64,000 bases of DNA from an uncultured Chloroflexia bacterium (GTDB taxonomy: Bacteria; Chloroflexota; Anaerolineae; Anaerolineales; UBA4823): positions 6,746-70,745 of the forward strand of contig CAVUTH010000008.1 of NCBI GenBank assembly GCA_963744375.1, in the 5' to 3' direction. The position numbers were made by a program, and so were the translations under genes. Shown one piece after another: positions 10,156 through 51,618 of the stretch. The notes beneath the pieces were generated by a model that searched no databases, had not been told where the DNA came from, and saw nothing but the letters and a program-made list of their open reading frames with translations. Numbering within the stretch: position 1 is the first letter of the stretch; each line of letters opens with the position of its first letter.

Positions 10156-10608
10156 TTAATCGTTTGTGTCGCGCCTATGCCCGCCTGATCCCGGGTGCTG
10201 GTAGGTCGCGGCAAGTGCCAGCAGCGCCGCCACCGCCAGCATGCCTGGCGCCAGGATGGGGGAAGCCCCGTGCAGCGTTTCTGTGATGAGCTGGGCGGTG
10301 GTCGCATTGGGCTGGATTTCCTGCGCAAAGCCCAGGTTGGCCGACAGGTGCAGGAACAACCCCAGCGCGCTGCCCAGGATCGCCAGCAGCATGCTGCCCC
10401 GCAGCGCGTTCAGCGTGCCACGCGTGGGCCGCAGCAACACCACGATTGTCGCCACAACTCCCAGCCCGCACAGAATAAACGGGATCAACTGCTGCGCTTC
10501 GCCGGTATGCTCCTGAAAGATCAGCTCCACCATCGTCCCGGCGAACAGGAAGACGGCCATGGCGAGTAAGAAGGTGCGAAAAGTTTGCAGAAGTTTTTGA
10601 TTATCCAT
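10156..10608 (-). CDS. hypothetical four-TM membrane protein
   Basis: 150-aa ORF with four hydrophobic segments. It converges on the previous gene with no gap. Confidence 0.55.
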   Translation of the reverse strand: MDNQKLLQTFRTFLLAMAVFLFAGTMVELIFQEHTGEAQQLIPFILCGLGVVATIVVLLRPTRGTLNALRGSMLLAILGSALGLFLHLSANLGFAQEIQPNATTAQLITETLHGASPILAPGMLAVAALLALAATYQHPGSGGHRRDTND

Positions 10609-10623
10609 GAGTAAGCCTGGCCG

Positions 10624-11214: not shown

Positions 11215-11400
11215 AGTGTACCTTTCAACAATCGTGAGATGGCATGGAGAGAATGTCTTCGGCAGCACCGGGACAGACAAACTTTATGATGTTTGTCTCC
11301 TATGCAGTTGGGATATGATACCCTGGGATTGTTCAGAAATTGTTAGCTTTTCTTAGGAATAAAATGAAGGCTTTCTGCAGCCATCCCGTTCATCCCTGTT

Positions 11401-11434
11401 AAATAAAAGTGGAAGCCGCCAGGGCGGCTTCCAC
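11401..11434 (-). terminator. Rho-independent terminator of the FKBP gene
   Basis: GC stem GTGGAAGCCGCC/GGCGGCTTCCAC followed on the minus strand by TTTTATTT. It lies 30 nt after the stop. Confidence 0.6.
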
Positions 11435-11465
11435 CGATGCTGATTTAGATCTAACCGAAATCGTC

Positions 11466-12714: not shown

Positions 12715-12937
12715 AATATGCTCCTATGAAATAATTCGGCCGCGCCGGCAAACGACCGGCGCGTATTAAACCGTAGAATTTTATCATGAATAAGGAAGAG
12801 TCGTATAAAACTGGAAGCCTGCAATCCCCTTATGGCGTCCTTAAGGTTCTTTTAAGGGGCGAAAACCGATCTGGATTTGAAGCCGGCTATGCGGATCAAG
12901 GCGGCGCTTAGCGCTCCATACCGGGATTGCCCGTGAA

Positions 12938-32163: not shown

Positions 32164-33735
32164 TTGCCCGATGTCCCTATCCCCGGAATTTTTGTTGAAG
32201 AAGGCGCACCACCGCCCCCGATTGTTGGGGTGAGCACCAGCACCGCCGGGTTCGCCGGTGCGGCCGAGCGCGGCCCGGAATATGCCTGCCTGGTCACCAG
32301 CTGGGCAGAGTACCAGCGCCTGTATGGCGGGGGCAACCCCAGCCAGTCGTTCCTGGCGGATGCCGTCTATGGCTTTTTCGCCAACGGCGGACGACGCAGC
32401 TATGTCACTCGCGTCGTCCCAGGGGCGGCCAGGGCTGCTTCGGCAGGCCTGGGAGGACTGGTTGTGCGGGCTATCGGCCGCGGCCCGTGGGGGCAGAATA
32501 TCTTCTTCAAGTTCGAGCCTTCCGCGACGCCCGTCGATGGCGAGACCCGCTACAAGATCAGAATCTGGTACTACCGGGCGCCGGTGCCTCGCGGCAACCC
32601 CGACCCCAGCGCACCCGATGCCAGCCCCAACCGCCGAAAACCTGAGGCCTTCGAGCAGTATGACAATCTGACCGGCGAGCAGGGGGCGGAAAACTACCTG
32701 CTTGATGTGATCAATTCACATTCCAACCTGGTGCGGGTGGCCTGGGATGCACGCCGCCGGCCTGCATTACCGGCCAATCCACTGACCGTGCGCCTGAGGC
32801 GAGCCGCCTCGGGCGGCAGCCTGCAGCTGGCCGATTTTGAAGGCGATCTCGACCCGATCGGCGGGTTGGCAGGCGCACCCCTGGGCAGCGGGCGCGGCTT
32901 GAAAGCCCTGGAGGCGATCGATGAAATCGCCCTGCTGTGTGTGCCTGATGAAGTTCATCCGACCCTGGCCGCATTGCGTAGCCCGCTGCGGGCGGCCATC
33001 CTGAACCAGTGCGAGACCCGCCGCGACCGCTTTGCCATCCTGTCGGCGGAGGCAGGTCGCAGCGATATCGACCATCCGCCCCTGCTGCCGCCCGGGGACA
33101 GCGCCTACGCGGCTTTTTATTACCCCTGGATTGAAGTCTTGGATCCGCAATCGCAAAAGAAGCGCCTGGTGCCTCCGACAGGGCACCTGGCTGGAATTTA
33201 CGCCCGCACCGACCTGGAGCGTGGGGTGCACAAGGCGCCGGCCAATGAGGTGGTGCGCGAAGCGCTCAACCTGGAGCTGCCGGTGACCCAGGCAATCCAA
33301 GATGCCTTAAACCCGCGCCAGGTGAACTGCCTGCGCGATTTTCGCCCGGACTCGCGCGGCATCCGGGTGTGGGGGGCGCGCACGATGTCTTCCGACCCAG
33401 AGTGGCGCTATGTGAATATCCGGCGCTTGTTTATCTTTGTGGAAAACTCGATCGCCCGGGGTACCCAGTGGGTGGTGTTTGAGCCCAATGACGAGCCCTT
33501 ATGGGCGCGGGTGCGCCAGAACGTCACGAATTTTCTGGTTGACCTGTGGCGCAGCGGCCTTCTGCTAGGCGCTACCCCGGACCAGGCATTCTTCGTACGC
33601 TGCGACCGCAGCACGATGACTCAGCACGATATCGATCACGGCCGTCTGATCTGCCTGATCGGGCTGGCGGCGGTCAGGCCGGCCGAGTTTGTCATCTTCC
33701 GCATCGGGCAAAAAACCGCCGGCGCCTCGGAATAA
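32164..33735 (+). CDS. contractile tail sheath family protein (phage/eCIS/T6SS-type), solitary
   Basis: 523-aa ORF with a TTG start 7 nt after AAGGAG. N-terminus: PGIFVEE..VGVSTSTAGFAGAAERGP..LVTSWAEYQRLYGG...FFANGGRRSYVTRV. C-terminus: GVHKAPANE...GIRVWGARTMSSDPEWRYVNIRRLFIFVENSI..WVVFEPNDEPLWARV...PAEFVIFRIGQ. Confidence 0.85.
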   Translation: MPDVPIPGIFVEEGAPPPPIVGVSTSTAGFAGAAERGPEYACLVTSWAEYQRLYGGGNPSQSFLADAVYGFFANGGRRSYVTRVVPGAARAASAGLGGLVVRAIGRGPWGQNIFFKFEPSATPVDGETRYKIRIWYYRAPVPRGNPDPSAPDASPNRRKPEAFEQYDNLTGEQGAENYLLDVINSHSNLVRVAWDARRRPALPANPLTVRLRRAASGGSLQLADFEGDLDPIGGLAGAPLGSGRGLKALEAIDEIALLCVPDEVHPTLAALRSPLRAAILNQCETRRDRFAILSAEAGRSDIDHPPLLPPGDSAYAAFYYPWIEVLDPQSQKKRLVPPTGHLAGIYARTDLERGVHKAPANEVVREALNLELPVTQAIQDALNPRQVNCLRDFRPDSRGIRVWGARTMSSDPEWRYVNIRRLFIFVENSIARGTQWVVFEPNDEPLWARVRQNVTNFLVDLWRSGLLLGATPDQAFFVRCDRSTMTQHDIDHGRLICLIGLAAVRPAEFVIFRIGQKTAGASE

Positions 33736-33748: not shown

Positions 33749-35904
33749 TTATTTCCCGCTGCCGGCTTTTAATACCCCGTGTACCGTGGTGCTGTAGTAT
33801 GCGATGCTGGGATTGAAAGGATCCAGGCTGATATTTTGCACGGTGTGCCCCGCCAGCTCGGCTGAGACCGGCTGCCAGGTAATCCCACCATCGATCGTTG
33901 TGTAAGCGCCGTCCGTCGTTCCCGCCAGGATATGCTGCGAGTTCGGCCGCAGCGATGCTGATCCAGGCGACGGTCTGACCGCTCAGCCCCAAGGGCTGCC
34001 AGCTGCCGCCGATCAGCTGGTACACGCCGTCGTCGGTGCCGGCCAGCGGCGCGCCCGGGTTGGCCGGCGACACTGCCAGGGCATACACATCCCGGTTGGG
34101 GATGGAAGAATTATTCCACGAGCCGCCCCCATTGCTAGAGACTTTCACGACGCCTGACTGGCTGGTGGCGGCGTAGACCGTCTGCGGATCGAGCGGATCT
34201 ACGGCCAGCGCCCAGACCGTCTGCGAGGAAAGCCCGGCGGACTGCCAGTTGAAACCGCCATCGCTGCTGGAAAATGCGCCGCCCGAAGAGCTGCCGATGT
34301 AGGCGATGCTGGGGTTGGAGGGGGCAAAGGCCATCGCCAGCAGCCCGTAATTGCCCGGCACCGCTTCGATCGAGAGCGAGTCCGGCGGGTACGCTTCCTG
34401 GAAGGTGGTGAAGGGCGAGAAGGGGCGCGGGACGCGCAGCGATTGAATGGCATCTTGCTGGCTGTCGGTCGGCAGGTTGCCGCCTACCTGATCCCAGCAC
34501 AGGGCCAGGTTCTGCAGGTCGCAGCGGTACAGGCCGGCGCCTTCGGTGAAGGCGAACAGCACGCTGATTGCCCGGCTGCTGCACCAGCCCATTGACCCAT
34601 TCGCTGCCAATATTGTTGCTGAAATCGCTCCAGGTCAGGCCGCCGTCGCTGGAAACCTGCACCCCGCCGCCATCCACGCCGGCATACAGTTCCGACGGGT
34701 TGAGCGGCGAGACGACCACTCCGGTGGCGGAGGACGCCTGCAGCCCGTCCATGCTGGGCGACCAGCTGCTCCCGCTATCCCGGCTGGCGTACAGCCCCAG
34801 CCCGGCCGTCCCGGCGAAGACCAGGGCGCTGTTCCCCGGGTGCACCCGCACGGTGGATACCGGCCGGTTGGATAGGGCCGCGTTGGACCAGGAATTGCCG
34901 CCGCTGCTGGTGCTCATCACGCCTTTGTTGTAGGTCGCCAGGTACACCTTCTGCGGGTTCGCATAGTCGATGTCCAGCCCGTAAATGTTCGCCCCGCTGA
35001 TGCCGCTGCTCTTCTGCGTCCAGGAGCCGCCCAGGTTGGTGGTTTTGAAGGCGCCTTCACCGGTCCACACCCCGGTGTAGGCCGTGCCGGCGCTGGCGCT
35101 GGTAGGGCCGATGCCGATCCCCCGGGTGGTGAAGCGGGTGATGCCGTTATTGGCCGCCCCCCAGCCGCTCCCGGCGTTGGTGGTCTTATAAATCCCGTGC
35201 TCGTGGGTGGCGGCCATCAGCGTGGAGGGCGAGGTCCGGCTGATAGCCAGCATGTAGGTCCAGTCCTGGTAATTCGATCCGCCCAGGTTGGAGAGCACGG
35301 AGTACCAGCTGGCCCCGCCGTCATCGCTGCGGTAGGTGACGCCCGCCCAGGGCTGCCCGCCGTTATTGGACAATCCGCGCGTGGCGGCATACACCCGCTG
35401 CGAAACCTGCGGGTTTACCACCATGGAATACACAATTGCATTGCCCTGGATGCCCTGGTTGGCCTCACTCCAGGTACTCCCCCCGTCGATGGTCTTGTAC
35501 ACGCCGCCGCGGTAAGTGCCGGCGTAAGCAATATCCGGGTTAGAGGGGTCGGCCGCCATCGAGACGACCGTCAGGTTGCCCAACCCCCGGCTGGCCCAGC
35601 GCCAGGTCAGGCCGCCGTCATCGCTGCGGTACACGCCGCCGCCCCACGAGCCGGCATAGACCCGGTTGGCATCCTGCGGCGATGCCGCCACTGCGGCGAT
35701 CAAGCCGCCATCCGGCCCCAGCCAAACCGGTTGGACCGCCTCCACCACGATGGGCAGGTACAGCAGCAGGTTGGAGGCCGCCTGCTCGGCAAGCGCGGGT
35801 TCCGCCGCCGGCGCCGGCTGGGATCCCAAGCGGAACCAGGCTCCCAGCGCCAGCGAGCACAGTGCCAGCATGCATATCCAGGTGACAAGCAGGGTGCGTT
35901 TCAT
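33749..35904 (-). CDS. secreted BNR/Asp-box repeat beta-propeller protein (sialidase/Ycf48-like fold), 2 frameshifts
   Basis: ORF 34135..35904 has a signal peptide and many S(x)DGGxTW units. It continues in ORF 33636..34610 and then in a third frame that ends ...PSIAYYSTTVHGVLKAGSGK* at 33749. Frame changes fall near 34565 and 33950. Confidence 0.75.
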
Positions 35905-36186: not shown

Positions 36187-36714
36187 ATGATTCACGGCGA
36201 AAAAATTGCCCTGCGCACAATGCGCGATAGCGACCTGGATATCCTGCTCGAAATGCTGGAGGATATCGAATCACGTGGCGAGTACTACCCCCAGGAGATG
36301 CCGTCCCAGGTGGCGATGCGCAAACGCTTCGCGGAGGACGGTTACTGGGGCGATAATTTTGGCCGCCTGCTGATCTGCGAGCCGGATGGCCGCATCGTCG
36401 GGATGGTGCATTTCTTCAAAGAGCCGTCCTACTTCGATGGGCTGGAGCTGGGTTACATCATGCTCGATCCCGCGGCACGCGGCAAGGGCTACATGACCGA
36501 AGCCGTGAGTCTGTTAGTGCGCTACCTGTTCCGGGTGTTCAAGATCAACCGCCTGCAGATCCTGGCGACACCGGAGAACATCCCCTCCTGGCGCGTGGCT
36601 GAAAAATGCGGCTTTACCTACGAAGGCACCGCCCGCCAGGCGATCTTCAATGCCGGGAAGATGTACGACCTGAAGGTCTATTCCTTGCTGAGAGCAGAAG
36701 CCAACCTGGATTAG
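36187..36714 (+). CDS. GNAT family N-acetyltransferase (RimJ/RimL-like)
   Basis: 175-aa ORF with the acetyl-CoA motif ARGKGYMTEAV and C-terminal NIPSWRVAEKCGFTYEG. Confidence 0.85.
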   Translation: MIHGEKIALRTMRDSDLDILLEMLEDIESRGEYYPQEMPSQVAMRKRFAEDGYWGDNFGRLLICEPDGRIVGMVHFFKEPSYFDGLELGYIMLDPAARGKGYMTEAVSLLVRYLFRVFKINRLQILATPENIPSWRVAEKCGFTYEGTARQAIFNAGKMYDLKVYSLLRAEANLD

Positions 36715-36728: not shown

Positions 36729-37064
36729 TTACTCGTAATTTTCTTTTCCTTCAGCCAGCATGCGCGGGCGGACTTCACGCGCCAGGCGATTGCCGAGCAG
36801 ATCGGCGGCGACATCCAGGTCGTAATCCGTCTGCAAGCCCATCCAGAACTGGGGTGAATTGCCGAAGTAGCGTGCCAGGCGCAGGGCGGTATCGGCGGTG
36901 ATACTGCGCTTGCCCAGCACGATCTCATTGATGCGGCGCGGGTGCACACCGATCTCCAGGGAAAGGCGGTTCTGGCTCAATCCCATCGGTCGCAGGAATT
37001 CTTCCAGCAGGACTTCACCGGGATGGATGGGATGTAAGGTCGCTTTATTCAAGGAATTGATCAC
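36729..37064 (-). CDS. higA: HigA-family XRE-type antitoxin (no adjacent HigB)
   Basis: 111-aa ORF with a GTG start. IHPGEVLLEEFLRPMGLSQNRLSLEIGVHPRRINEIVLGKRSITADTALRLARYFGNSPQFWMGLQTDYDL is a textbook HigA/VapI sequence. Confidence 0.85.
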   Translation of the reverse strand: MINSLNKATLHPIHPGEVLLEEFLRPMGLSQNRLSLEIGVHPRRINEIVLGKRSITADTALRLARYFGNSPQFWMGLQTDYDLDVAADLLGNRLAREVRPRMLAEGKENYE

Positions 37065-37115: not shown

Positions 37116-38112
37116 TTAAGGCTTTGTCTTGATCTTTCCAGCAATAATATCCTCTTTGATCCGCTCCAGGTCGGCCTTCACCTGGTCGGAGATCAGCCAA
37201 TCCAGTTCGTAGAAGGGCGAGATGCCGACTTCGCCGCTGGCCAGCGTGCCGGTATGAATGCCGCCGGAAAAGCTGCCGTTGGCGATGGCCTGGGCTGCCT
37301 GGGTCACACTGGCAGCGTAGCGCTTTTCGATGCTGGTCAGGATGACCTCCCTCAGATCGGGTGAGCTCAGCGCCCAATCATTATCCACGCCGATCATCCA
37401 GGCGCTCGCCGTGTTCCAGGATTTCTGCCCCGGCGCCCCAGCCGATGCTCTCTCCGGCCACCGGCAGGATGATATCCGCGCCTTGCTCCAGCAGCTGCCG
37501 CGCCAGCGCCCTGCCTTCCGTAGTGCAGCAAAAACCACCGGCGAATAATCCGCTGTGTTTGGCCGGGTCCCAGCCGAGCACCTGGATATCTGTGCCATGC
37601 TTCTGGTTGTAATAGCTCACTCCCAGGGCGAAACCGTCCATAAAGCCGGTCACCTGCGGGATATCGACCCCGCCAAAGACGCCCACCTTGCCTGTTTTGG
37701 TCGCCGAGGTGGCCGCGTAACCGGCCAGGAAGGCTGCCTGATCGGTGGCATACACCTGAGTCCACAGGTTATCCGGCTGGTCCTCCAGCACAAAATCGGT
37801 GACCATGAACTTTTGCAGCGGGTTAGCCAGAGCTGCTTTACCAACCGCTTCCACAGCGACCCTGGCGCGACAACCACATGACAGCCGCTGTCCATGAGAG
37901 CATTGATGTTCCCCTCGAAATCGGAAGCTGCCGGCGAACTCCAGCACAGTGGCTTCCCAGCCATGCTGGCCGGCCGCCTGCTGTACTCCTTCATATATAA
38001 ACTGATTGAAGTAAGAATTGTTCAGGCCGCCGGTGTCCGTCACCTGGCAGATGCGGCCCTGCTCCACGATCGGCAGTGCAGTCGGCTCGGCGGGAGGCGC
38101 CGGCGGGATGCA
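37116..38112 (-). pseudogene. BMP-family (Med/PnrA-like nucleoside-binding) domain, at least 3 frameshifts, no own start or signal peptide; possibly the C-terminal domain of the upstream WD40 gene
   Basis: Pieces in ORFs 37381..38067, 37650..37994 and 37116..37598: ICQVTDTGGLNNSYFNQFIYEGVQQAA.., DFEGNINALMDSGCHVVVA.., TKTGKVGVFGGVDIPQVTGFMDGFALGV..., GADIILPVAGESIGWGA.., MIGVDNDW.... This frame opens just after a TAG at 38122-38124. Confidence 0.7.
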
Positions 38113-41100
38113 GCCAGCTCTCTACCCGGTGCAGGTACTTCTGGCATTCGTCCACGGTCAGCGAGCGGGTTACCAGTGACCTGGCCAGGGCTGCCAGCTC
38201 CTGGGTATCCAGCAGGTAAAAACGCACCCCATCCGCATTAGCCGCCGCCAATCGTTTCCCATCCGGGCTGAAAGCCAGGCTATAATGCCCGGCGCCGTTG
38301 TCGAAGAAGGTGAGCAGCTCCTCACCCGTCGCAGCATCCCACAGCTTGGCGCTCCCATCCTGGCTGGCGGTGCCGATACGCGTACCATCCGGGCTGAAGG
38401 CGGCGCTGGTGACTGCGCCGGTGTGCCCGCTCAGTACCAGCAGCTCTGCCCAACTGCCTGTGTCCCACACTCTGGCGCTGCCATCCATGCTGGCGCTAAC
38501 CAGCCGCTCACCATCCGGGCTGAAACCTAACGAAAGGATTGAGTTGGTGTGCCCTTGCAAAGTGGTGCTTTCCTTTTTGGATTCCAGGTTGAACAGGCGC
38601 ACGCCTGCCGTTATGGAGACCGGCTGCCAGCATGGCTGCCATCCGGGCTGATCGCCAGGGATTTGATCTCATTTTGCAGCTCAAAGGTATCGACAGGCTG
38701 CATTTCTGCGCTGCTCGTCAGCTCTGCTGGGGAGATATCCCACAGCTTGATCTTAAAGTCGTCGCTGGCAGTGGCCAACAGCATGGCCTGGGGGTGAAAG
38801 GCGAGCCGCGTTGATCCGTCCGGTGTGAGCCGGCCACTGGCGCAGCAGCTCGCCGCCGAGGCGGCATCCCAGACTTTCACGACAGCCTCTTCGCCGGCGG
38901 TGGCGATGAGCTTGCCGTCCGGGCTGAAGGCATAGGCCGAGACCCAATCACCGCCCACCGGCAGGGATTGCATCTCCTGGCCAGTGGCTGTTTCCCACAG
39001 CTTGACCGCATCTCCCTGGCCGCCGGCCAGCAGCGCGCCATCCTGGGCTGAAGGCAACCTGACCGCCGACGCCGCCAGGCTCGAAAATGGCCTGTCCTTC
39101 GCGTGCCGGCAGGATATCCCAGGTACGCAGGCTGCCATCCTCGCTGCCGGAAGCTAATTGCGTGCCGTCCGGGCTGAAAGCCAGCCCGGTGATCGCTCCG
39201 TTGTGGCCGTTCAGGGTGAAAATTCGGCGGCCGGTGGCTGTGTCCCACAGGATGATTTTGCGATCGGCGCCCCCGGTCGCCAGGCGGCTGCCGTCCGGGC
39301 TGAAAGCGACGGCTTGAATATCGTATTCAGGTGCCCGCCGAAGGTGAGCAGCTTTTGCCCGCTTTCGGCATCCCACAGCATGGCTTCAGTCTCGCTGACG
39401 GTCGCGATGCGGCTGCCATCCGGGCTGTAAGCCGCCGCCCACACCCAGCCCGGATGACCGGCAAGCTGCAGGATCTCCTGGCCGCTGGCGGCATCCCATA
39501 CCCGGGCTGTGCGGTCGTCGCTGATGGTCAGCAAACGGTTCCCATCCGGGCTGAAGACTGGCCCCGGAGACGTAATCGGTGTGGCCGGGGAAGTTGGCCA
39601 GCTCGTTTCCGGATAGCGAGATCCCAAACTCTGGGCAAATTGCCCGCTGGTGACCGTCGCCAGCCGGGCGCCATCCGGGCTGAAATCGACTGTGGCGCCG
39701 GCATCGATGTGCCCGTTGAGCGGCAGCGCCTCGCCGGTAGCGGCATCCCACAGGGCGACGGCTGCCATCGGCAAGCACCGTGGCAAGCCGGCGTGCCATC
39801 CCGGCTGAAGGCGGCGGCATGCCCGGCGGTCGTGAACAGCCAATCGTCCCGTCAGCCGAGCCCCCAGACTTTCACCACCTCGTCCGGGCTGGCGGCTGCC
39901 AGGCTGTTTGCCATCCGGGCTGTAGGCCAGGCTGATCGCTTTGCCCTGGCTCGCCGGCGGGGATGACCTGCCGCACCCTGGATGCCAGCACTGCCTGGTG
40001 CAGCGCTTCTTCGCGCCTCAGGTCGTATCGGCGGCATCCAGCGCCTCAAGGCCCAGCAGCAGGCTGCGCTCGGGGTCAATTTCCAGGCTGCCGGATAGCG
40101 GCGGCTGCCAGCTCACGCGAAGCTGCCAGGCGGCCTTCGCTCAGCCACTGCCGCCCGATGAACAACGCCAGCGAATGCCATCAGGGCGGCCAGGACGAAG
40201 GCCACGGCCAGGTAGATGGAGCGTTTGCGCAGCTGCCCTGCGGCGTGGGCCTGCTCCTCGGCGCGCCGCCGCTCGGCTTCGGCCAGTTTTTGGGCAGCCT
40301 CCAGCTCGCGCTGGCGTTGTGCTTCGCGCTCGATGCGCTTCGCACTCGGCAAAATCCTGCGCCGCGGCGATAAATTCGCGTTCCAGCGGGTTCATCTCGT
40401 CCTGATGGCCGGATCGGCCCATTCCACGTGCCTGCGCCAGCCGGGCGCCGCGATAGAGCACATCCGGCTCGCGGCTCCAGGTCGGCCCACTCCTGGGCGG
40501 CTTCGGTCAGGTGACGGTGCAGGCGCAAGCCCTCACGGTTGTCTTCCAGCCAGCCGCGCAGCGTCGGCCACTCGCGGATCAGCGCCTCGTGCGCCACCTC
40601 GGCCGAGTTTTCGCTGGTGGTGATCAGGCGGGCATCGGCCAGGGCTTTGAGCACCAGCTGGGTGGTGTCTGCCTCTTCCGGCTTCAGGATCAGCTCATTG
40701 AATGTCGCCCGGCGGCGGGTATCGCCGGTGGCTGTTTCGTCACCCAGCTCGGTCAGCCGCAGGAAGATGCGGCGGGCGATCTGCCCGCTGCTCGGGCTTG
40801 AATTGATCGGTGAAAACCGCTTCGGCGGTCTCGGCGATCGCGCCGCGCACCCCGCCCGAGGAGGTGTAGCCGCTCAGGGTCATCATGCGCCCGCGCCGGC
40901 GCTGCCAGGTCTCGAACAGCGCATGCGAGAGCAGCGGCAATGCCCCGGCTCATGGCCCACATCGTGCAGCAGCAGATCCACCAACCCCGGCTCGAGCTCC
41001 CAGCGCCCGCGGCGGGCAGGTTCCTCGATCGCCCGGCGCAGCTCCTCATCATTCATCGCGCCGATGTACTCCTGCTGTCTGCGCCAGGGCATCGCGCAGC

Positions 41101-41982
41101 CGGGCATAGCCGGCGCAGTGGGCATAAAAATCGGCCCGCAGGGTGATGACAGCACAATGACCGGTCCGTCCGGCTCGGCAGCGGCTGTCATGAGCAGGTT
41201 GTCGATGAAGCGGCCCGCTCGTCCTCCGAGCGGCACAGGGCGAACAGCTCCTCGAACTGGTCAACCACCAGCAACATCCGGCGCCGCATTCGCTGATCAG
41301 TTACTTGCCGTGCGTGAACAGGTGCAGGCTGCGCGGATCTGCGGGCCAGGTCATCCATCAGGCTGGCGGCAGCACCACCGAGCCATTTTCCTGCGTCAGG
41401 GCCATCGCCAGGCTTTCCAGCGGATGGGCGGTGGGCGTGAGCACATGAATATCCCAGTCCGCCGACTCCTTGTTCCAGCGCAGCGCCGGCACCAGCCCAG
41501 CCCGCACCAGCGATGATTTGCCGCTGCCGGATGCGCCCACGACCGCCAGGAAGCGCGGCTCGCTCGGATGCCGCCTGGGAGGCCAAACCCAGCAGCCGGT
41601 TCAGTCAGTTTGGCCGTCAGCGCTTCCGCGTCCAACGAACAGATCCGCATCGGCCTTCATCGAAGATAATTCAACCCTTTGTAGGGACACAACCCCAGCA
41701 CCGGCGCATCTTCGCGGCGCACGTTGGCGGCCAGATCGAGCAGGCTGCGCCACCGCCAGCGGGCTCATCTTCCAGGTCCAGCGCCGGGACGAAGCGCGCT
41801 TCGATGGTGGGGATATCCGGCAGGCGCAGGTTTTGTTCCAGGCGGCTGATCTGCGCATCGCTGTAGCCGACCGCGATCGCCAATTCCATCTGGGTGATGC
41901 CGGCGCGCCGCCGCAGAAAGCGCAGCAGGTCGCCAAAGGTGGTGAATTTTTCCAGCGTGCTGGAAGGGATGGAATTAATCAT
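38113..41982 (-). pseudogene. XRE-HTH / STAND-class P-loop NTPase / TM / ~14x WD40 repeat protein, at least a dozen frameshifts
   Basis: The ATG at 41982 gives the HTH (GITQMELAIAVGYSDAQISRLE). Then come Walker A VVGASGSGKSSLVRAGL (ORF 41358..41540), Walker B LLVVDQFEELF (ORF 41188..41586), a coiled coil plus TM helix IYLAVAFVLAALMAFA (ORF 40113..40352), and WD40 units in ORFs 39211..39843, 38948..39376, 38611..39138 and 37991..38602. The sequence ends ...SLTVDECQKYLHRVES. Confidence 0.8.
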
Positions 41983-42170
41983 CGTGCTGTCCCTTCTATA
42001 GGCGGATTGATTTCCCGTCGTATATTGCACAAGAATATCATAATTCAGTTTTCTATTGGAGAATTTTGGCAGAAAATGGCAAGCCTGGTAACTCACCGGT
42101 TGATATAGTTCAGAGCATCAAACGGCGCCCATGGAGCGCCAATATTCACCAGTTTATTTTGGAGGAAACC

Positions 42171-43753
42171 ATGAAGCACATAACCCGAACCGATATTACC
42201 TTTGCTCGTCTTGCTGGCAGTCCTGCTGTCCGCTTGCAGCAGCGCCGGCCACCGAGCAGCCCGCCGCCCCGGCAGGCCACCGAAAAGCCGGCGGAGATGC
42301 CTGCCACCAGATGTACCTGCCGAGCCGACGGCATGCCGCCGATCGTAGCGCCTGGCCGAGATCCAGGAGATCGCCATCGAAGCCACAGGACTTCTCCTAC
42401 AGCGTGCCGGAAAACGTGGTGGAAGGCTGGGTGCGCGTCAACCTGACCAACAGCGGCAGCGAGCCGCACCACGTCCAGTTCCTGCGCCTGAACGACGGCG
42501 TGACCTTCGAGCAGTTCCAGGAAGCACTGCAAGCAAGGCGCAGGCCCGGCCATGGCGCTGGTGCAGCAGGTGGGCGGTGTGGGCGCCATCGCTCCGACCA
42601 TGTCTGCCGAGTGCGGTGCTCAACCTGCCCGCCGGCGAGTATGTCATGCTGTGATCTGATCCCCTCGCCCAGCGATAACATGCCGCATTTCACCAAGGGC
42701 ATGATCGCCAATTTCCCCGTGCTGGCTGCCGCAGGGTGAAGGCGCTGCCGAGCCGCAAGCCTCGCCTGACTGTGGACCTGCAAGATTTCACCTTCGAGAT
42801 GCCGGATAGCCTGCCGGTGGGTGAGAGTGTCATCAAAGTTGCCAACAATGGCCCCGAGGCGCACGAGTGGAACCTGCTGCTGCTGGCCGAAGGCAAGACC
42901 GGCTGCCGATGTGGAAGCCTTCCTGTCCGGCGCCGGCGGGCCGCCGCCCTTCGCCCCCATCGGTGGGATCAACGGCATGGACAAGGGTCTGCACGGCTAC
43001 GCCGAAGTCGACCTGCAGCCCGGCCGCTATGCCGCCATCTGCAACATCCCCAGCCCCAACGCCGGCGGCCAACCCCACCATGCCCTGGGGATGATCAAAG
43101 AGTTCACCGTTGGCGATGTGGCTGCCGCCCCGGTCGCTGCCCCTGCCGCCGCTTTCCCCATCGGCCAGTTTGTCTCCAATACCGATGCAGCCCTCTCGTA
43201 CATCTTCAATGCCGATGGCACCTTCTCTTACGTGGTCAGCCAGACCCCGGTGCTGAACGGCACCTACGAAATCCAGGGCGATGTCTTCCAGGAGCTCTCC
43301 AACGATGACAGCGATCCCGCCTGCCAGAATCCGCCCGCCTACAAGTGGTCCTTCGACGGCGCCACCCTGTCCTTCTCCCGCACGGAAGAAGATGCCTGCC
43401 GCGGCCGCCGCGAAGCCAACGCCGATACCTACACCCTGGTCAAGGCTGCATCCGGCGAGTTTCCCACCGGCCGGTTCATCTCCAATAGCGATACTGCCCT
43501 GGCGTATGTCTTCAACGCCGACGGTACCTTCTCCTTCGTAGTCAGCGAAACCCCGGTGCTGAACGGCACCTACGAAATCAATGGGGATCTCTTCCAGGAG
43601 CTGACCAACGACGATAGCGAGCCTACCTGCCAGGAGCACCCCGCCTACCAGTGGATGTTCGACGGCACGACCCTGTCCTTCATGCCCACCGGCGAGGACA
43701 CCTGCCGCGGCCGCCGCGAGGCCATGGCCGATACCTACACGATCGCTCCGTAA
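42171..43753 (+). pseudogene. lipoprotein with two cupredoxin-like domains and two C-terminal Cys-containing repeat modules (several frameshifts in the first half)
   Basis: The ATG at 42171 sits behind GGAGGA. Signal-like fragments are spread over three frames. Domain 1: SGSEPHHVQF...GEYVMLC(D)LIPSPSDNMPHFTKGM. Domain 2: NGPEAHEWNL...GRYAAICNIPSPNAGGQPHHALGM. Two modules of about 100 aa follow at 43154-43459 and 43460-43750, intact in ORF 42821..43753. Confidence 0.6.
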
Positions 43754-43907: not shown

Positions 43908-46900
43908 TCAAACAACTCGCTGGTCGGTGCAGTTTTTCCCCGGGCCGCCCTTGATGCGCACATCCTTACGCACCGTGTTATTGGCTGCTACCGGATCGAA
44001 GGTGGTCGAGGTGACCGAGGCAAAGTTAGAGATAATCCTGACGCTGCCGCGCACATCGACAATGATATCCACGCTCACCGTTTGTCCGGCGGGCAGGGTG
44101 CCGAAGTTGCAGACCACATTGTGCAGCGCCAGGCTGTAAGCGCACAGGCCATTGCCGCTGTCCATCACATAGACAATCTTCTTCGGGTCCATCGGCAGTG
44201 TATCGGTCATCACCACATTCAAGGCATCCGAGGCGCCCAGGTTGGTGATCGTGATGACGTACTGGATGCGCGGGGCGGGATTGATGGTCAGGAAGTTGGC
44301 GGCTTTGGTGATCATCAGGTCGGCGCTGGCGTTAACCAGCGTGTCCTCCTGCACCATCACCGGAGCGGCCTCCAGCGCATCGGCAGTGGCGGTGTTCGTC
44401 AGAGTCGTGCCATGCGGCACCGAGGAACTCACCAGCACGGTGAAGATCACCTTGACATACGCGCCCGGATCCAGGTCGTTCAGATCGCAGTACAGCGTAT
44501 CGGGCGGATTTGCCAGCAGCGAACAGGTGCCTGAGCCGTTGGATATGGAGTAACCCTGGTAGCTTGACTCCGCCGGGCAGCAGGTCGCTCAGGGTGACAT
44601 CCGTGGCGGTGGAAGGCCCGTTGTTGCTGATGGTGACCTCGTAGGTCAGGATCATACCGGCGATCACCGGGTCGGGTAAATCCGTCTTGGTGATGCTCAG
44701 CACGGCCATAGCGTCTACCTGGACGGCCACCGTGGCCAGGTTGTCGTCGTTATCCCCATCGTAGGTGTCGCTGGAAACGCTGGCGTTGTTGCCCAGCACG
44801 CCGCGTGTCCCCGGTAAGACGTGCACGACGATGGTCATCGTCTCGGAGGCGCCATCCGCCAGCGAGTTGAAGGCGCAGGTCGTCGGCAGGGCTGCATTAC
44901 CGGGCACGCCGGCATTACAAACTCCATTGGTCGCTGAAACACTCTGGATGGTCACGCCGGCCGGCATGACATCCGAGATGACTACATTGACCGCTGTGGA
45001 GGGGCCATTGTTGGTCACTTGCAGGGTGTAAGTCAGGTCCGTCCCCGCCACCACCGGGTTAGGCGCGGCTGTTTTGGTCAACGCCAGGTTGGCGGCCGGG
45101 GTGACTGTGGTGCTGTCTTGTGCAACGTTATTGCCTGGGACCGGGTCGGGGGTGATGCTGGAGACCGTGGCGGTGTCGTTGATATCCTGGCCTTCATCGG
45201 CGCTGAGCACCACCTTGATCGTGGCTATAGCGCCAGCGCTCAAATTGCCTATATTGCAGCTTACATCACCCCCACCTATTTGTGGGTTGGCGGGGAAATT
45301 GCATACTCCCAGGGTGGATGTGGCGCTGACAATGTTGAATGTTCCGCTGCTCACGATCGCGTCAAGCAGAGCAACCGATTGGGCAGTTGAAGGTCCCAGG
45401 TTTTCGATGACGATGGTGCAGGTCGCGGTATCACCGGCATACCATGGGGTGCCCTGGCGATCGGGCTTGCAATCCTTCGTTACCCTCAGGTCGGCTTCTT
45501 CGATGACTATGGTGTCCGCGGTTGCGCTGTTGTCGCTCATGTCAGGATCAAACTCGGTCGCGCTTACCGTCGCCGTATTGCTGAGTGTATTGGTGCCATT
45601 GGCGATCAAAGACGCGGATACTCGCACCACGACATCGAAGGGTATGCTGGCACCAGGAGCCATATCTCCCAGGTTGCAGGTTAAGGTTGGATTGGCGAAG
45701 GTGCAGCCTCCCGTATTGGAGATATAAGTCACCCCGGCAGGCAGGCTGTCACTGACGACCACATCCGTTGCCTGGCTGGGGCCGTTGTTTGTCACCGTGA
45801 TTGAGTAGGTCAGCAGGCCACCGGCAGTCACCGGGTCCGGTGAGTCGACTTTCGTGATGGACAGGTCGGCCTGGTTGCAGGTGGGGAAGCGGAAAGCACC
45901 GACGCGTGTAGCCCAGCCTCCGTTCGCCAGGCCGTACTCCTGGGTGTACCAGAAGGTGCAGCCATCCACCGGATCCAGGCTCATATCGCTGTAGTCACCC
46001 CAGCGACCCGGACAGGGATTGCCACCGCAGACCAGGTTTTGTGATCCCGTTCCGTTCATCAGCGTAACCTCACCGTGGGGCAGCAATCCAAGCGGATCGC
46101 TGGCCAGGCGGCCGGCGTAACGGATGCCCGGGAAAGTGGCATTGTTGTCGGACACGCTGTAGCCAAGAGCCATGTTACCGGCTTTATCCATGGCAACACT
46201 GCCCATCCAGCGGTGCAGCCAGGCCGGCGCACCCACCTGCTGTGGGGCATAGGTGCCTTGCTGGAACAGAGTCCAGGCGCCAGCTCCGGCCGGGGTTCGG
46301 CGCAGCTCATACCAGCGGATGCCGGTATTCCCGTTGCCATCGGCATCTACCGTGTGGTTAAAGACCATGGCTTCATATGCGCCAAAGTTATGGTATTGCA
46401 GACGGAACATCGGCCAGACTGTGATTCCAGCCAAATTCTGCATCCCCACTCCTGGCTGTGGGATGCAGTATTCCATCAGGCTTCCTGGGGCGCACAGGCC
46501 CGAATCGAAAGGTGCGGTATTCAGCGCAGTTGGACCGCTTAATGTGGAGTTGGCCGGGTTGCCCCAATCCACGCTGAACTGGAAGACTTCGACACGGTCG
46601 TTGCCGCCCCACAGGCCGCCATCCATCATGCGAGCGAAGAAGGCCGGGCTGCCTGCCGGCGGTGCATTCCAGTCGGCATCGCTGGGCAGCAGGACGATAG
46701 CAGGGCTGCCTACAGTGGCGACCTGGAAAGTCGCCGGGTTTCCGTTGAGCATGTTAGCCCGGTCGAATGCCATGACGTTCAGATCGCCACCAGTGTAGCC
46801 CCGTTGGGAAGTCAGGTAATAGGCATCCGGCCAGACGCTCATCTTGGGGTAATCGTGTCCGAAGTTGAACTGGAACTCGTACAGGTACCAGCCGCCGTTC

Positions 46901-47595
46901 ACCGGATCGCCGGTTTGAGAGACGGCAATACACTGCCAGGTTGGGGGATTGGCGAAGCCGTTGGGTACGGCAAACTGGCTGATCACCCAACGATCCGCGT
47001 AACGATCATAGAGCACGATCGGATCGCCATTGTTGTTTGCCTGGCAGGCTGTACCGCTGTTCGCTGCCACCCACAGCTGGTTGATGTTGGTAGGACCGGC
47101 CAGTAAATTTCCCAGGCGGTCGTAGATGGCAAACTGAGAATTGACCGATTGGATGTATTCATTGCGGCCAATTGCCCCATTCGTATCGGGGGGTAAAGAC
47201 CCGGTGAAACCAATCCCGTTGAAATTGGGATTGGGATTGAGAAATTCAGGCGGCGTGACGGCATCCGGCATTTCCGTTTGCATCACGCTGTCTGGGACGC
47301 CAGGGGCATCCGGAAATACCAGCGGTGAATTCTGGCTCTGGTCTCCCAGGGGGAAATCCCGGATTGCATCTCCAGGCATCCATTTCAACGCCTTTGGTAG
47401 AGAATTAATCCCTCCGCTAAATACGCCGGGTGTTACTGGCGCACCGGAGGCGACCTGCCCCTGGGTGGGTGGTGAGAGAGCTTCGCGAGCCTGCCCGATC
47501 GCTGGTGAGCTGCGCAGCATGGTGATAGACAGGATCGCGACTGTCAGTATCACAACTGCCCGCAATAAAGTAGCGTTCTTCCTTTGGCGGTTCAT
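43908..47595 (-). CDS. large secreted DUF11-repeat surface protein (one frameshift near 44555)
   Basis: ORF 44332..47661. I prefer the ATG at 47595, behind AGGAG, giving MNRQRKNATLLRAVVILTVAIL. The N-terminal domain is about 560 aa. At least six DUF11-type units follow (DLSITKVDSPDPVTAGGLLTYSITVTNNGPSQATDVVVSDSLP...). The last units continue in ORF 43908..44450 after an extra G in a GGG run. Confidence 0.8.
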
Positions 47596-48264
47596 ATCCC
47601 AATCTCCTATTCGAAAGGTGCATAAATTGGTAAGGGTTTTTCGGAGGCGCGTTGAAACCAATGCGGCAAAATAAACGCGCAGATGACGTGGTTTTGGGTT
47701 AAACCGGTCTTTTAAAAATTGTCTCTCAGGAACAGCTTAACGCGGGTTCCTACGAGCGAGAGAATAGCTACTCGCCTAGGATCAGGACGTCAGGCCCATA
47801 ACCTTTCGGCCGGTCCAAAACCCACTGCCCAACTGACTTCGTGTGATAGCCAATGGTAAATCAGCCGGGCCTCATTGATGGAGGAGTAGAGGGTAGATCG
47901 TTTATCCAGGCGCCTCCTTCTTCGGGGAATAGAATCCCCCATTGCTCTACAAGCGACCAGGTGCTGAAAAGGCTGAGATGATCTTCCGGGTTTCACAAGG
48001 ATCAGCTATTTCCCCAAAAAGCTTTATAAGCTGACCTTGCCCGGTCTGGCAATTTGACTATTCAACACCAATAAGGTAAAAGAACTATGAAAAGATTATA
48101 GTATCATTACCCGGTTTGTCAATAGGTCAATATCGATATTGTCATAATTCTTAGCCTGGTTAAATATTAATGGTTTGCCAGCTGTCAATTGCAGAGGGGG
48201 TATTGATCGATCGATTAAGTTTGTGTTGAATTTGTGAATATTTGCGCGATAATAAATTAACTCG

Positions 48265-51200: not shown

Positions 51201-51618
51201 CGCCCGCGGTTCAAAACGCGCGAACCTACCCCTGGGGAAACAAGTTTGATGGCACGCGAAGTCAATTTTTGCGACCTGAAATGCCCAAATCCGGAGAACA
51301 ACAAGTCTTTCGACGGGTATGAAGATACCGCCCCGGTAAACATTTTCCCCCAGGGAGCCGGCCCCTACGGGGCGCTCAACCTGGCCGGCAACGTCTCGGA
51401 GTGGGTGGCAGACTGGTATGATCCGGATTTTTACGCTCACTCTCCAAATTCCAACCCCGTGGGACCGCCTTCCGGGAAGATGCATATTTTGAAGGGTGGT
51501 GATTTCGGTCTCCCGAGATTGCAATCTTCCGATCGCTATGCGGTTAGATCCCGGGTTTGCATCGGACGCTGCCGGTTTTCGCTGCGCTTACTCCCCGGGA
51601 CTATTATTTGGCTATTAA
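48265..51618 (+). CDS. CHAT (caspase-like) protease - TPR/helical repeats - TM - FGE-sulfatase (SUMF1) domain protein; 3 frameshifts in the last 400 nt
   Basis: ORF 48265..51249 has the CHAT dyad contexts HVLHYMGHGGF and LVFLNACETA, long helical repeats, the TM helix WAWVVGGVTLLALLVGGFFLL, and then the FGE domain MVLVPAGNFMMGS...YPVIYVSWEQAQAYCQWRGARLPTEAEWEKAARG. That domain continues out of frame (RTYPWGNKFDG / NFCDLKC...GNVSEWVADWY... / DPGFASDAAGFRCAYSP*) to 51618. Confidence 0.8.

What the first reader, a model, noticed from the sequence alone, without database searches (positions are those of the whole stretch)
37116..41982. Membrane-spanning HTH-STAND NTPase-WD40 giant, possibly fused to an extracytoplasmic BMP ligand-binding domain
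Seen: the minus-strand fragments read in order give the following.
- An XRE-type HTH.
- A P-loop NTPase (Walker A GASGSGKSS at about 41514-41537, Walker B LLVVDQFEELF).
- A helical region and a coiled coil (EREAQRQRELEAAQKLAEAERRRAEEQ).
- A single TM helix (about 40166-40217).
- About 14 WD40 units, ending ...LTVDECQKYLHRVES near 38115.

The BMP-family frame opens immediately there, after a TAG at 38122-38124 (RAGCIPPAPPAEPTALPIVEQGRICQVTDTGGLN...). It has no ATG or signal peptide of its own and runs to 37116. A single-base indel would therefore fuse it to the WD40 C-terminus.

Inference: the HTH and NTPase would be cytoplasmic and the propellers plus BMP domain outside. That makes a one-polypeptide transmembrane STAND switch with a small-molecule-binding head. 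STAND-WD40 proteins with N-terminal HTH are known as conflict or signalling modules, but a BMP-capped version would be unusual. The gene is interrupted by at least a dozen frame changes.
Basis: partly seen in the sequence, partly recalled or inferred. Interest (0 to 1): 0.7.

Follow-up and report, generated by a model that had tools for sequence, protein, structure and literature searches.

The report
Transmembrane STAND regulator with nucleoside-binding head
The broken reading frames are one roughly 1,600-residue signalling protein of Anaerolineae bacteria, with a DNA-binding switch inside the cell and two propellers plus a nucleoside-type binding domain outside; the fusion is real in many intact relatives, and the 41 frame breaks in this copy look like sequencing errors.

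Summary
On the minus strand, 41982..37116 reads as:
- HTH_31
- a full-length nSTAND1 NTPase
- a charged helix
- one strongly hydrophobic helix
- 14 WD40 blades
- a Cys-containing "CQKYLH...C" cap
- a Pro-rich linker
- a complete BMP/PnrA domain

The fusion is real. About 90 intact protein clusters of 1,570-1,730 aa cover the whole repaired protein at 45-65% identity. In 11 independent loci the BMP domain follows the cap in frame. No locus has it as a separate downstream gene.

The copy in the window needs 41 frame changes, not "a dozen". It has no in-frame stop and keeps 227 of 231 family-invariant residues. The frame-shifted zone also runs into the neighbouring gene, and intact 3-kb ORFs lie nearby. 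I therefore read the breaks as consensus errors (about 80%) rather than gene decay.

The BMP head keeps the aromatic sandwich and the ribose-binding Asp/Asp/Lys. Its nearest structures are nucleoside-bound Lbp, PnrA and BmpD.

Most likely function (inferred): a membrane-spanning, ligand-gated STAND transcription regulator. A candidate control site is a near-invariant 26-28-nt block in its own promoter region.

The architecture is common in Anaerolineae. I found no description of it in the papers I could search.

The parts
37116..41982 (-). Whole gene, conceptually about 1,604 codons plus the stop at 37116-37118: HTH-nSTAND1-TM-WD40x14-BMP.
   Evidence: Frameshift-aware alignment to the intact homologue P0001: 1131 of 1607 residues identical and no in-frame stops. 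About 90 intact full-length homologue clusters.
41797..41937 (-). XRE-type helix-turn-helix (residues 16-62).
   Evidence: PF13560 HTH_31, E=1e-10 and 6e-9.
40465..41686 (-). nSTAND1 NTPase module (residues 99-499). Walker A is at 41511-41537 and Walker B at 41248-41274.
   Evidence: PF20703 profile positions 1-378 of 379, 424 bits, E=9.9e-127. Motif coordinates.
40218..40331 (-). Highly charged E/R/Q/A-rich helix (residues 543-580) ending in LRKRS. It is either a coiled coil or a single alpha-helix connector.
   Evidence: Read directly from the sequence. Conserved in the 25-sequence alignment A1. No coiled-coil predictor was run.
40154..40217 (-). Single predicted transmembrane helix (residues 581-601).
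   Evidence: Kyte-Doolittle 19-residue mean of 2.66. The equivalent segment scores 1.8-2.9 in 24 of 25 fused homologues and is the only strong peak.
38159..40132 (-). Extracytoplasmic region: a helical SRELAAAA...DPERS lead-in, then 14 WD40 blades (two seven-bladed propellers).
   Evidence: PF00400 and many propeller families. 14 FSPDG-type motifs at about 42-residue spacing.
38056..38158 (-). TxxECQKYLHxxxxxC cap with two family-invariant Cys, followed by a Pro-rich linker. The +1 frame change at about 38116 that separates the WD40 and BMP frames lies here.
   Evidence: C1266 and C1277 are invariant. BMP-less paralogues end 4-6 residues after the second Cys (P0108). The linker has pLDDT below 50 in the AF2 model.
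37119..38055 (-). BMP/PnrA-type periplasmic-binding-protein domain (residues 1294-1604).
   Evidence: PF02608, E=2.5e-40. Sequence match to PDB 7x0r at 1.9e-31 and 2fqw at 4e-21. For the model of orthologue P0001, the top 12 Foldseek matches are 11 nucleoside-bound BMP proteins and one unannotated Aeropyrum pernix binding protein.
37404..41757 (-). 41 frame changes inside the gene: 30 of +1 type and 11 of +2 type.
   Evidence: Positions listed. No in-frame stop; 227 of 231 invariant columns kept.
42056..42083 (-). Near-invariant promoter-region block CTTGCCATTTTCTGCCAAAATTCTCCAA, upstream of the gene. It is a candidate operator lying between two back-to-back promoters.
   Evidence: Alignment A2. 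The 21-nt core matches exactly, on the gene's strand, about 33-82 nt upstream of the start in 10 further distinct loci.
42169..43753 (+). Divergently transcribed lipoprotein gene: two cupredoxin-like EPHHVQFLRLNDG modules and DUF5640-like repeats. It carries 6-8 frame changes between 42385 and 42904. It is a possible regulatory target.
   Evidence: tblastn to the homologous upstream genes of L001, L083 and L084. The same gene sits upstream in L006, L007, L018 and L035. Pfam hits are weak, below the gathering score.

Best explanation
The locus encodes one large membrane-spanning signalling protein of the Anaerolineae (Chloroflexota) HTH-nSTAND1-TM-WD40 family, in its BMP-capped form.

**Shown**
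- The domain order is an XRE HTH, an nSTAND1 P-loop NTPase, a charged helix, one hydrophobic helix, 14 WD40 blades, a Cys-containing cap, a flexible Pro-rich linker and a complete BMP/PnrA-type binding domain.
- This order is a continuous ORF in many independent assemblies.

**Inferred**
- The HTH and NTPase are cytoplasmic. The helix spans the membrane as a signal anchor. The propellers and the BMP head face outwards, so the helix replaces the lipid anchor of ordinary BMP lipoproteins.
- The BMP head binds a nucleoside or a close ribosyl-heterocycle.
- Flytrap closure, perhaps together with a partner bound by the propellers, is relayed through the helix to the STAND module. That module exchanges nucleotide and oligomerises, which brings the HTH domains together.
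- The clustered HTH domains act on a conserved repeat-containing block, with CCA(T/A)-starting units about 10-11 bp apart, that sits between the gene's own promoter and a divergent promoter.

**Frame changes**
The 41 frame changes in this window are most likely consensus or assembly errors, not biology.
For: **Domains:**

**Fusion**
- One search gave about 90 intact clusters of 1,570-1,730 aa at 93-100% coverage. Sources include NCBI, JGI, ENA and Logan, and some entries are named 'WD40 repeat protein/basic membrane lipoprotein Med' or 'BMP family ABC transporter substrate-binding protein [Anaerolineales]'.
- One search showed BMP in frame after the cap in 11 distinct loci, and no BMP at all in 50 cap-bearing loci.

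**Topology**
- One hydrophobic peak, preceded by LRKR, is conserved in 24 of 25 homologues.
- There is no N-terminal signal peptide.
- The C-terminal part carries family-invariant Cys (C1266, C1277, C1298, C1353).
- BMP proteins are exported lipoproteins (PMC7093131).

**Ligand**
- The closest solved structures are Lbp with guanosine, PnrA with adenosine, uridine, thymidine or inosine, and BmpD with adenosine (PMC9601137).
- PMC13325309 defines an aromatic sandwich and a ribose-binding Asp/Asp/Lys. Through the PnrA alignment these map to F (YFN), D (TDF), F1470, D1519 and K1539. The last three are invariant in the family, and all five are kept in the window.

**Regulatory site:**

**Error reading**
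- No stop in 1,604 codons, and 227 of 231 invariant residues kept.
- Single-base insertions outnumber the other type 30 to 11.
- The dirty zone, 37404-42904, crosses the intergenic region into the neighbouring gene.
- Other dirty zones exist, while ORFs of 3.3 and 3.0 kb at 44-51 kb are intact.
Against: - No experiment exists for any member, so topology, ligand, oligomerisation and DNA target are all inferred.
- Positive charges flank both sides of the helix (3-4 against 2-3 in the 15 residues on each side), so the positive-inside rule alone does not settle the orientation.
- Two BMP positions that are invariant among the 25 homologues differ in the window (D1308N and D1542A). This copy could have a changed or impaired pocket.
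- The divergent neighbour is not the same gene in all loci.
- nSTAND1 was defined in conflict-system contexts (PMC8195603).
- The frame changes show no clear link to homopolymers, and I have no reads to prove that they are errors.
Confidence: 0.62

Rival explanations
1. This copy is a true decaying pseudogene. The organism has lost the sensor, and possibly its divergent lipoprotein partner, and the 41 indels are real mutations.
For: - The frame changes are very dense, about 8 per kb, while nearby 3-kb ORFs are intact.
- The functionally linked divergent gene is also broken.
- Two invariant BMP residues are altered.
Against: - There is no in-frame stop in 1,604 codons, and 98% of invariant positions are kept. 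Neutral decay that produced 41 indels should also have produced many substitutions, including several stop codons.
- Insertions outnumber the other type 30 to 11, opposite to the deletion bias known for bacterial pseudogenes.
- Similarly dense zones hit unrelated genes, including an ABC-2 transporter operon at 57.8-60.4 kb.
Confidence: 0.17
2. The protein is a conflict or immunity STAND rather than a metabolic or environmental regulator. It would sense an extracellular sign of attack or of kin lysis and trigger a defensive transcription programme.
For: - nSTAND1 was defined in counter-invader systems of multicellular prokaryotes (PMC8195603).
- Several paralogues occur per genome.
- The window also carries a CHAT-FGE-sulfatase protein and a tail-sheath gene.
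Against: - The N-terminus carries only an HTH, with no enzymatic or death-type effector.
- No PADLOC defence family matches beyond generic repeat and HTH profiles.
- The sensor faces outwards, unlike characterised antiviral STANDs.
- No effector gene is a conserved neighbour.
Confidence: 0.15
3. The hydrophobic segment is not membrane-spanning. The whole protein is cytoplasmic, and the BMP domain senses an intracellular metabolite, as LacI-type regulator cores do.
For: Type I binding-protein folds do occur in cytoplasmic repressors; LacI, CcpA and RbsR appear among the weaker Foldseek matches. Charge flanking the helix is not decisive.
Against: A 21-residue segment with a Kyte-Doolittle mean of 2.3-2.9 is conserved at one position. 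The nearest relatives of the head are all exported lipoproteins. Conserved Cys are added in the C-terminal part.
Confidence: 0.05
4. There are two genes: a WD40 protein that ends at the CQKYLH cap and a separate BMP lipoprotein.
For: A TAG stop lies at 38124-38122 in the BMP frame. BMP-less paralogues end at the cap (P0108).
Against: The BMP frame has no start with a signal peptide or lipobox. The closest relatives are all fused in frame, and no locus has a separate downstream BMP gene. This junction shift is only one of 41.
Confidence: 0.02

Closest known systems
BMP-less HTH-nSTAND1-TM-WD40 proteins of Anaerolineae (for example P0108, 1,274 aa)
   Same: They share the same HTH, nSTAND1, charged helix, single hydrophobic helix, 14 WD40 blades and CQKYLH...C cap. 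Some also share the same promoter block (L012, L015, L018).
   Different: They end 4-6 residues after the cap. The form in the window continues through a Pro-rich linker into a BMP domain.
STAND transcription regulators such as MalT and AfsR/SARP-LAL (from general knowledge of these families)
   Same: The logic is the same: a P-loop STAND switch joined to a DNA-binding domain and a sensor region, with ligand-driven oligomerisation that activates promoters carrying repeated sites.
   Different: Those regulators are soluble cytoplasmic proteins with LuxR- or OmpR/BTAD-type DNA-binding domains and TPR/SUPR sensors. This protein has an N-terminal XRE HTH, belongs to the nSTAND1 clade, has a membrane helix and places its sensor outside the cell.
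ToxR/CadC-type membrane-tethered one-component regulators (from general knowledge)
   Same: They have an N-terminal cytoplasmic DNA-binding domain, a single transmembrane helix and a C-terminal extracytoplasmic sensor.
   Different: They have no NTPase module, a winged-helix DNA-binding domain and much smaller sensors. They are not homologous to this protein.
PnrA/TmpC, BmpD, BmpA and C. thermocellum Lbp (nucleoside-binding BMP lipoproteins)
   Same: They match PF02608, share the type I binding-protein fold, and keep the aromatic sandwich and the ribose-binding Asp/Asp/Lys (PMC7093131, PMC13325309, PMC9601137).
   Different: They are free-standing lipoproteins with a signal peptide and lipobox, encoded in ABC transporter operons. 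Here the domain is the C-terminal head of a 1,600-residue receptor, has extra conserved Cys and has no transporter genes nearby.
B. subtilis Med, a BMP-family lipoprotein needed for KinD signalling (Banse et al. 2011, J Bacteriol 193:3949, cited in PMC3911142)
   Same: It is a BMP-fold protein used for signalling at the membrane rather than for transport. A Med homologue (2hqb) is a strong structural match, with target-normalised TM-score 0.85.
   Different: Med is a separate protein that works with a histidine kinase. Here the BMP domain is covalently fused to a STAND/HTH output.
Apaf-1-type STAND proteins with WD40 sensors
   Same: A STAND NTPase is followed by two WD40 propellers that act as the ligand sensor (PMC7159879).
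   Different: Apaf-1 is cytosolic and belongs to the AP-ATPase clade. It has a CARD effector, no membrane helix and no binding-protein domain.

Membership tests
nSTAND1 clade of STAND NTPases (PF20703) | Full-length match to the family profile above the gathering score. | tested here: met
   424 bits against a cut-off of 27.1, profile positions 1-378 of 379.
nSTAND1 clade of STAND NTPases (PF20703) | Walker A GxxxxGK[ST] and Walker B hhhhD. | tested here: met
   GASGSGKSS at 41537..41511 and LLVVDQFEE at 41274..41248. G147-S155 and D238-E241 are invariant in A1.
nSTAND1 clade of STAND NTPases (PF20703) | Tripartite STAND layout: N-terminal output domain, NTPase, C-terminal repeat sensor. | tested here: met
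   HTH_31, then nSTAND1, then 14 WD40 blades.
nSTAND1 clade of STAND NTPases (PF20703) | Nucleotide-dependent oligomerisation on ligand binding. | not testable with these tools
   This needs biochemistry.
BMP/PnrA family (PF02608), as a domain | Profile match above the gathering score and a type I binding-protein fold. | tested here: met
   138.8 bits against a cut-off of 24.1, profile positions 6-296 of 301. In the AF2 model of orthologue P0001 most of the BMP part has pLDDT of about 80-97. Top Foldseek matches are 7x0r, 6y9u, 2fqw and 6shu.
BMP/PnrA family (PF02608), as a domain | Nucleoside pocket: two stacking aromatics and a ribose-binding Asp, Asp and Lys. | tested here: met
   The residues are named in PMC13325309 and PMC7093131. 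Through the PnrA alignment they map to YFN-F, TDF-D, F1470, D1519 and K1539. All five are present in the window protein. The mapping of numbering is my own.
BMP-family ABC-transporter substrate-binding lipoprotein, as a functional class | Own signal peptide and lipobox cysteine. | tested here: not met
   There is no start codon or signal peptide in the BMP frame. In intact homologues the domain follows the WD40 cap in frame.
BMP-family ABC-transporter substrate-binding lipoprotein, as a functional class | Encoded next to the cognate ABC ATPase and permease genes. | tested here: not met
   None is present within the flanks of L001, L083, L084 or L085, or next to the gene in the window.
WD40 beta-propeller | Repeated WD40 units in numbers sufficient for closed propellers. 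| tested here: met
   PF00400, E=2.8e-29 to 5.7e-16 on four fragments. 14 blades.
XRE-type HTH | Profile match above the gathering score. | tested here: met
   PF13560, 42.2 bits (on the 74-aa fragment) and 36.5 bits (on the repaired N-terminal half), against a cut-off of 27.
Known anti-phage defence systems (PADLOC, including Avs-type STANDs) | Match to a defence-system protein model. | tested here: not met
   Only generic repeat (HEAT-ARM_XIII), HTH_VI and a marginal mad3 hit.
Genuine pseudogene | Premature stops and loss of conserved residues along with the indels, with the damage confined to the gene. | tested here: not met
   No stops and 227 of 231 invariants kept. The frame-shift zone extends into the neighbouring gene, and other such zones exist. 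Final proof needs reads.

The most novel reading that the evidence does not exclude
This family is a cell-surface, NLR-like 'danger' receptor of filamentous Chloroflexota. The tethered BMP head would detect nucleosides released by lysed neighbours or by attackers, and the propellers would detect a second, macromolecular cue. The signal would cross the membrane and drive STAND oligomerisation and a transcriptional defence or differentiation programme. That would be an outside-in STAND pathway, without a described precedent in the papers I could search.
Probability: 0.12. Interest if true: 0.8.

Novelty: new variant of a known kind. Interest (0 to 1): 0.45.

Why it matters
Characterised STAND/NLR-type switches are soluble intracellular sensors. 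Here an nSTAND1 switch with a DNA-binding output appears to be wired through a single membrane helix to a very large external sensor made of two propellers and a nucleoside-type flytrap domain. The arrangement is a populous, conserved family in Anaerolineae, bacteria that are abundant in sludge, sediments and soils.

If the inferred topology and ligand hold, three things follow:
- It would be a new way of coupling extracellular small-molecule sensing to transcription.
- It would give a tractable model: a purifiable BMP head, a defined candidate operator and a short list of candidate ligands.
- It would show that the database name 'BMP family ABC transporter substrate-binding protein' is misleading for these 1,600-residue proteins.

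For the scan itself, the practical lesson is that this window contains local zones of dense indel errors.

Tried and rejected
- **Plain tblastn of P0001 against the window.** It gave long low-identity alignments that ran across frames and was useless for locating the shifts. I replaced it with my own frameshift-aware alignment.
- **Source of the window.** Exact-sequence look-ups of three intact window proteins found nothing on record. blastn against 85 fetched loci gave at most 72-75% nucleotide identity. The source genome and its read technology remain unknown.
- **Rfam.** No match anywhere in the window, so the conserved intergenic block is not a described RNA.
- **Sigma-70 consensus scan of the intergenic region.** No pair was found. 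The promoter reading rests on TGnTA-type extended -10 elements seen in the alignment and is an inference.
- **Homopolymer association of the +1 shifts.** The skipped base equals a neighbouring base in 16 of 30 cases, about what chance gives (hand count). The exact indel positions are ambiguous.
- **Positive-inside rule.** The charge difference across the helix is small and was not used as decisive evidence.
- **Conserved divergent lipoprotein as an obligate partner.** Rejected as a general rule. It is present in 8 loci, but L085, L012 and L015 have other small exported proteins in that position.
- **Literature.** Searches for this architecture found no description.
- **Not run.** A second AF2 job, the representative-library search and a metagenome scan, because the question was already settled.

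Full report
**1. What is in the sequence**

Three-frame translation of the minus strand between 42.1 and 37.1 kb gives fragments that, read in order, form one protein. Pfam scans confirm each part:
- HTH_31 (E=1e-10).
- nSTAND1, covering profile positions 1-378 of 379 (E about 1e-127).
- Many WD40 and propeller hits.
- Bmp/PF02608. After frame repair it covers profile positions 6-296 of 301 at E=2.5e-40.

- Walker A at 41537..41511.
- Walker B at 41274..41248.
- Charged helix at 40331..40218.
- Hydrophobic helix at 40217..40154.
- Cap at 38158..38110.
- BMP domain from 38055 to 37119, with the stop at 37118..37116.
- Fourteen FSPDG-type blades about 42 residues apart, enough for two seven-bladed propellers.

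**2. Is the WD40-BMP fusion real?**

I repaired the frames with a codon-usage dynamic programme, which found 29 shifts. I then searched the 1,607-aa conceptual protein against the protein collection.

The best roughly 90 clusters are continuous proteins of 1,570-1,730 aa that cover 93-100% of the query at 45-65% identity. They come from NCBI, JGI, ENA and Logan assemblies. Where a source gives a name, it is 'BMP family ABC transporter substrate-binding protein [Anaerolineales bacterium]' or 'WD40 repeat protein/basic membrane lipoprotein Med'.

Lower-scoring relatives of about 1,275-1,330 aa lack the BMP part. They end '...ECQKYLHVEACPAVP' (P0108).

A scan of species-representative genomes found 542 relatives, essentially all in Chloroflexota/Anaerolineae MAGs. 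In every one of the 11 distinct loci with a BMP homologue, the domain lies in frame 23-42 codons after the cap. In 50 loci that have the cap but no fusion, there is no BMP gene anywhere in the fetched flank.

So the fusion is genuine, and a split version was not seen. In the window the cap and the BMP domain are 103 nt apart, one base out of register. This fits a single +1 change at about 38116.

**3. The frame changes**

A frameshift-aware alignment of the best intact homologue (P0001) to the window needs 41 frame changes: 30 that skip one base and 11 that skip two. It meets no in-frame stop and gives 1131 of 1607 identical residues. Of the columns that are invariant in a 25-sequence alignment of fused homologues, the window keeps 227 of 231, and it keeps 250 of 269 near-invariant ones.

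The shifts are not limited to this gene:
- They continue across the 186-bp intergenic region into the first 0.75 kb of the divergent lipoprotein gene, with the last one at about 42904.
- Other dense zones lie at about 54.2-55.6 kb and 57.8-62 kb, in unrelated genes that include an ABC-2 transporter operon.
- ORFs of 3.3 kb (44332-47661) and 3.0 kb (48265-51249) are intact.

Four features point to locally poor consensus sequence rather than gene decay, at about 80% against 17%: the absence of stops, the retained invariant residues, the excess of insertions, and a zone that ignores gene boundaries. I could not identify the source record or its reads, so this remains an inference.

**4. Topology**

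A single segment with a Kyte-Doolittle mean of 1.8-2.9 over 19 residues occurs at the same place in 24 of 25 fused homologues and in the window (2.66). No other segment approaches it. It is preceded by a conserved LR(K/R)R motif and by about 580 residues that have no signal peptide and include an ATP-dependent module and a DNA-binding domain.

If the helix spans the membrane, the C-terminal 1,000 residues must be outside. Three independent hints agree:
- The head belongs to a family otherwise known from exported lipoproteins (PMC7093131).
- The C-terminal part has family-invariant cysteines (C1266 and C1277 in the cap, C1298 and C1353 in the BMP domain, plus a near-invariant CC). Lbp and PnrA lack these in the alignments.
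- The linker is Pro/Thr-rich and is modelled as disordered.

Flanking charge is not decisive. None of this is an experimental demonstration.

**5. The BMP head**

By sequence the closest solved proteins are C. thermocellum Lbp (7x0r, 1.9e-31) and T. pallidum PnrA (2fqw, 4e-21).

An AF2 model of the last blade, cap, linker and BMP of P0001 has mean pLDDT 80.5, with most of the BMP part at about 80-97. Eleven of its 12 best Foldseek matches are BMP proteins crystallised with guanosine, adenosine, uridine, thymidine or inosine; the other (4pev) is an Aeropyrum pernix binding protein with no ligand named. A Med homologue also matches well. Lbp was found with an endogenous ligand best fitted as guanosine (PMC9601137).

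PMC13325309 names the family's conserved pocket: two stacking Phe and a ribose-binding Asp, Asp and Lys. Using the PnrA alignment, with numbering checked against Asp27, Ser28 and Phe186 in PMC7093131, these correspond to:
- the F of 'YFN';
- the D of 'TDF';
- F1470, D1519 and K1539.

The last three are invariant in the family, and all five are present in the window protein. A nucleoside or a related ribosyl-heterocycle is therefore the most likely ligand.

The window differs at two positions that are otherwise invariant, D1308N and D1542A. I cannot tell whether this is real variation or error.

No ABC permease or ATPase genes accompany the gene in four homologue contigs or in the window. The domain is therefore unlikely to serve a transporter.

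**6. Surroundings and a candidate control site**

Upstream and divergent lies a lipoprotein gene (42169-43753,+). It has two cupredoxin-like modules and DUF5640-like repeats, supported only by weak Pfam hits. The same gene sits in the same position in L001, L083, L084, L006, L007, L018 and L035. It does not in L085, L012 or L015, where other small exported proteins occupy that place.

The intergenic alignment has 39% mean column identity, yet it contains a near-invariant block, CTTGCCATTTTCT(A/G)CCAAAATTCTCCAA (window 42083..42056). Its 21-nt core occurs exactly, on the gene's strand, about 33-82 nt upstream of the start codon in 10 further distinct loci, both fused and BMP-less.

The block lies between two TGnTA-type extended -10-like elements that face outwards. 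It contains CCA(T/A)-starting units about 10-11 bp apart.

I read it as a shared control region of back-to-back promoters and the most likely target of the protein's own HTH. This is inference; the simple sigma-70 scan found nothing and Rfam found nothing.

**7. How it most likely works**

Shown: the architecture, its conservation, and the nucleoside-type pocket.

Inferred:
- Ligand-induced closure of the tethered flytrap, possibly with a partner bound by the propellers, is transmitted through the single helix and the charged connector to the nSTAND1 module.
- That module exchanges nucleotide and oligomerises, as STAND proteins generally do (PMC7159879).
- Oligomerisation clusters the XRE HTH domains on the repeated units of the promoter block, changing transcription of the gene itself and of the divergent gene.

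Rivals are a true pseudogene (0.17), a conflict or immunity role (0.15, not exclusive with the main reading), a fully cytoplasmic protein (0.05) and two separate genes (0.02). PADLOC gives no defence-family match.

**8. Comparison with what is known, and novelty**

Each domain is a clear member of its family, as set out in the membership table. As a whole protein, however, it fails two defining features of a BMP-type ABC substrate-binding lipoprotein: it has no signal peptide or lipobox of its own, and no transporter operon. The database name is therefore misleading.

In function it resembles three known kinds of system:
- STAND transcription regulators (MalT, AfsR) in logic.
- ToxR/CadC in topology.
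- Med-KinD in using a BMP fold for signalling.

It belongs to none of those families.

nSTAND1 was named in PMC8195603 without this architecture. Searches of the held literature found no description of an HTH-nSTAND1-TM-WD40(-BMP) protein.

I rate it a new variant of a known kind: common in databases and uncharacterised. It is moderately interesting to people who work on STAND/NLR evolution and bacterial signal transduction. The frame-shift aspect is most likely an artefact.

Noticed in passing
window 42056-42083 (-), and upstream of the homologous gene in L001, L006, L007, L008, L011, L012, L015, L018, L083 and L084: A near-invariant block, CTTGCCATTTTCT(A/G)CCAAAATTCTCCAA, sits in an otherwise poorly conserved intergenic region, flanked by outward-facing TGnTA-type -10-like elements. 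It is a candidate operator or shared promoter core.
   Followed up: partly
window 42169-43753 (+): A divergent lipoprotein gene with two 'EPHHVQFLRLNDG' cupredoxin-like modules and two DUF5640-like repeats. It has 6-8 frame changes in its first 0.75 kb. It is a conserved neighbour of the STAND gene in 7 other loci.
   Followed up: partly
window about 54.2-55.6 kb and 57.8-62.0 kb: Further zones of dense frame changes lie in unrelated genes: the second of two tandem acyltransferase-like membrane proteins, an ABC-2 transporter ATPase with two permeases, and a WYL-like regulator. ORFs of 3 kb at 44-51 kb are intact, so sequence quality is locally uneven.
   Followed up: partly
window 48265-51249 (+): An intact 994-aa protein with a CHAT (caspase-like) domain and a C-terminal FGE-sulfatase/C-lectin-type domain. 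This architecture is typical of conflict systems and of targets of diversity-generating retroelements. I did not search for a reverse transcriptase or template repeat.
   Followed up: no
window 32164-33735 (+): A phage tail-sheath-like protein (PF04984/PF17482), suggesting a contractile injection system or a prophage remnant.
   Followed up: no
window 44332-47661 (-): An intact 1,109-aa DUF11-repeat protein, probably a surface protein.
   Followed up: no
window 33749-35904 (-): A secreted Sortilin/BNR-repeat protein with about 3 frame changes.
   Followed up: no
window 36729-37064 (-) and 36187-36714 (+): A lone HigA-type XRE antitoxin gene lies 52 nt downstream of the large gene, with no toxin gene visible beside it. 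A GNAT acetyltransferase gene follows. Both are free of frame changes.
   Followed up: no
window 8-10 kb, 22-24 kb and 62-64 kb: Patches of low G+C (0.42, 0.52 and 0.46, against about 0.60 elsewhere). ORFs 8584-9243 and 9268-10155 have no Pfam match, so these may be foreign islands.
   Followed up: no
L059 (CAWJPR010000018.1), match at 6001-12771: A relative whose match to residues 1-1271 is spread over 6.8 kb in a long-contig MAG. This could be tandem copies or another frame-shifted copy.
   Followed up: no
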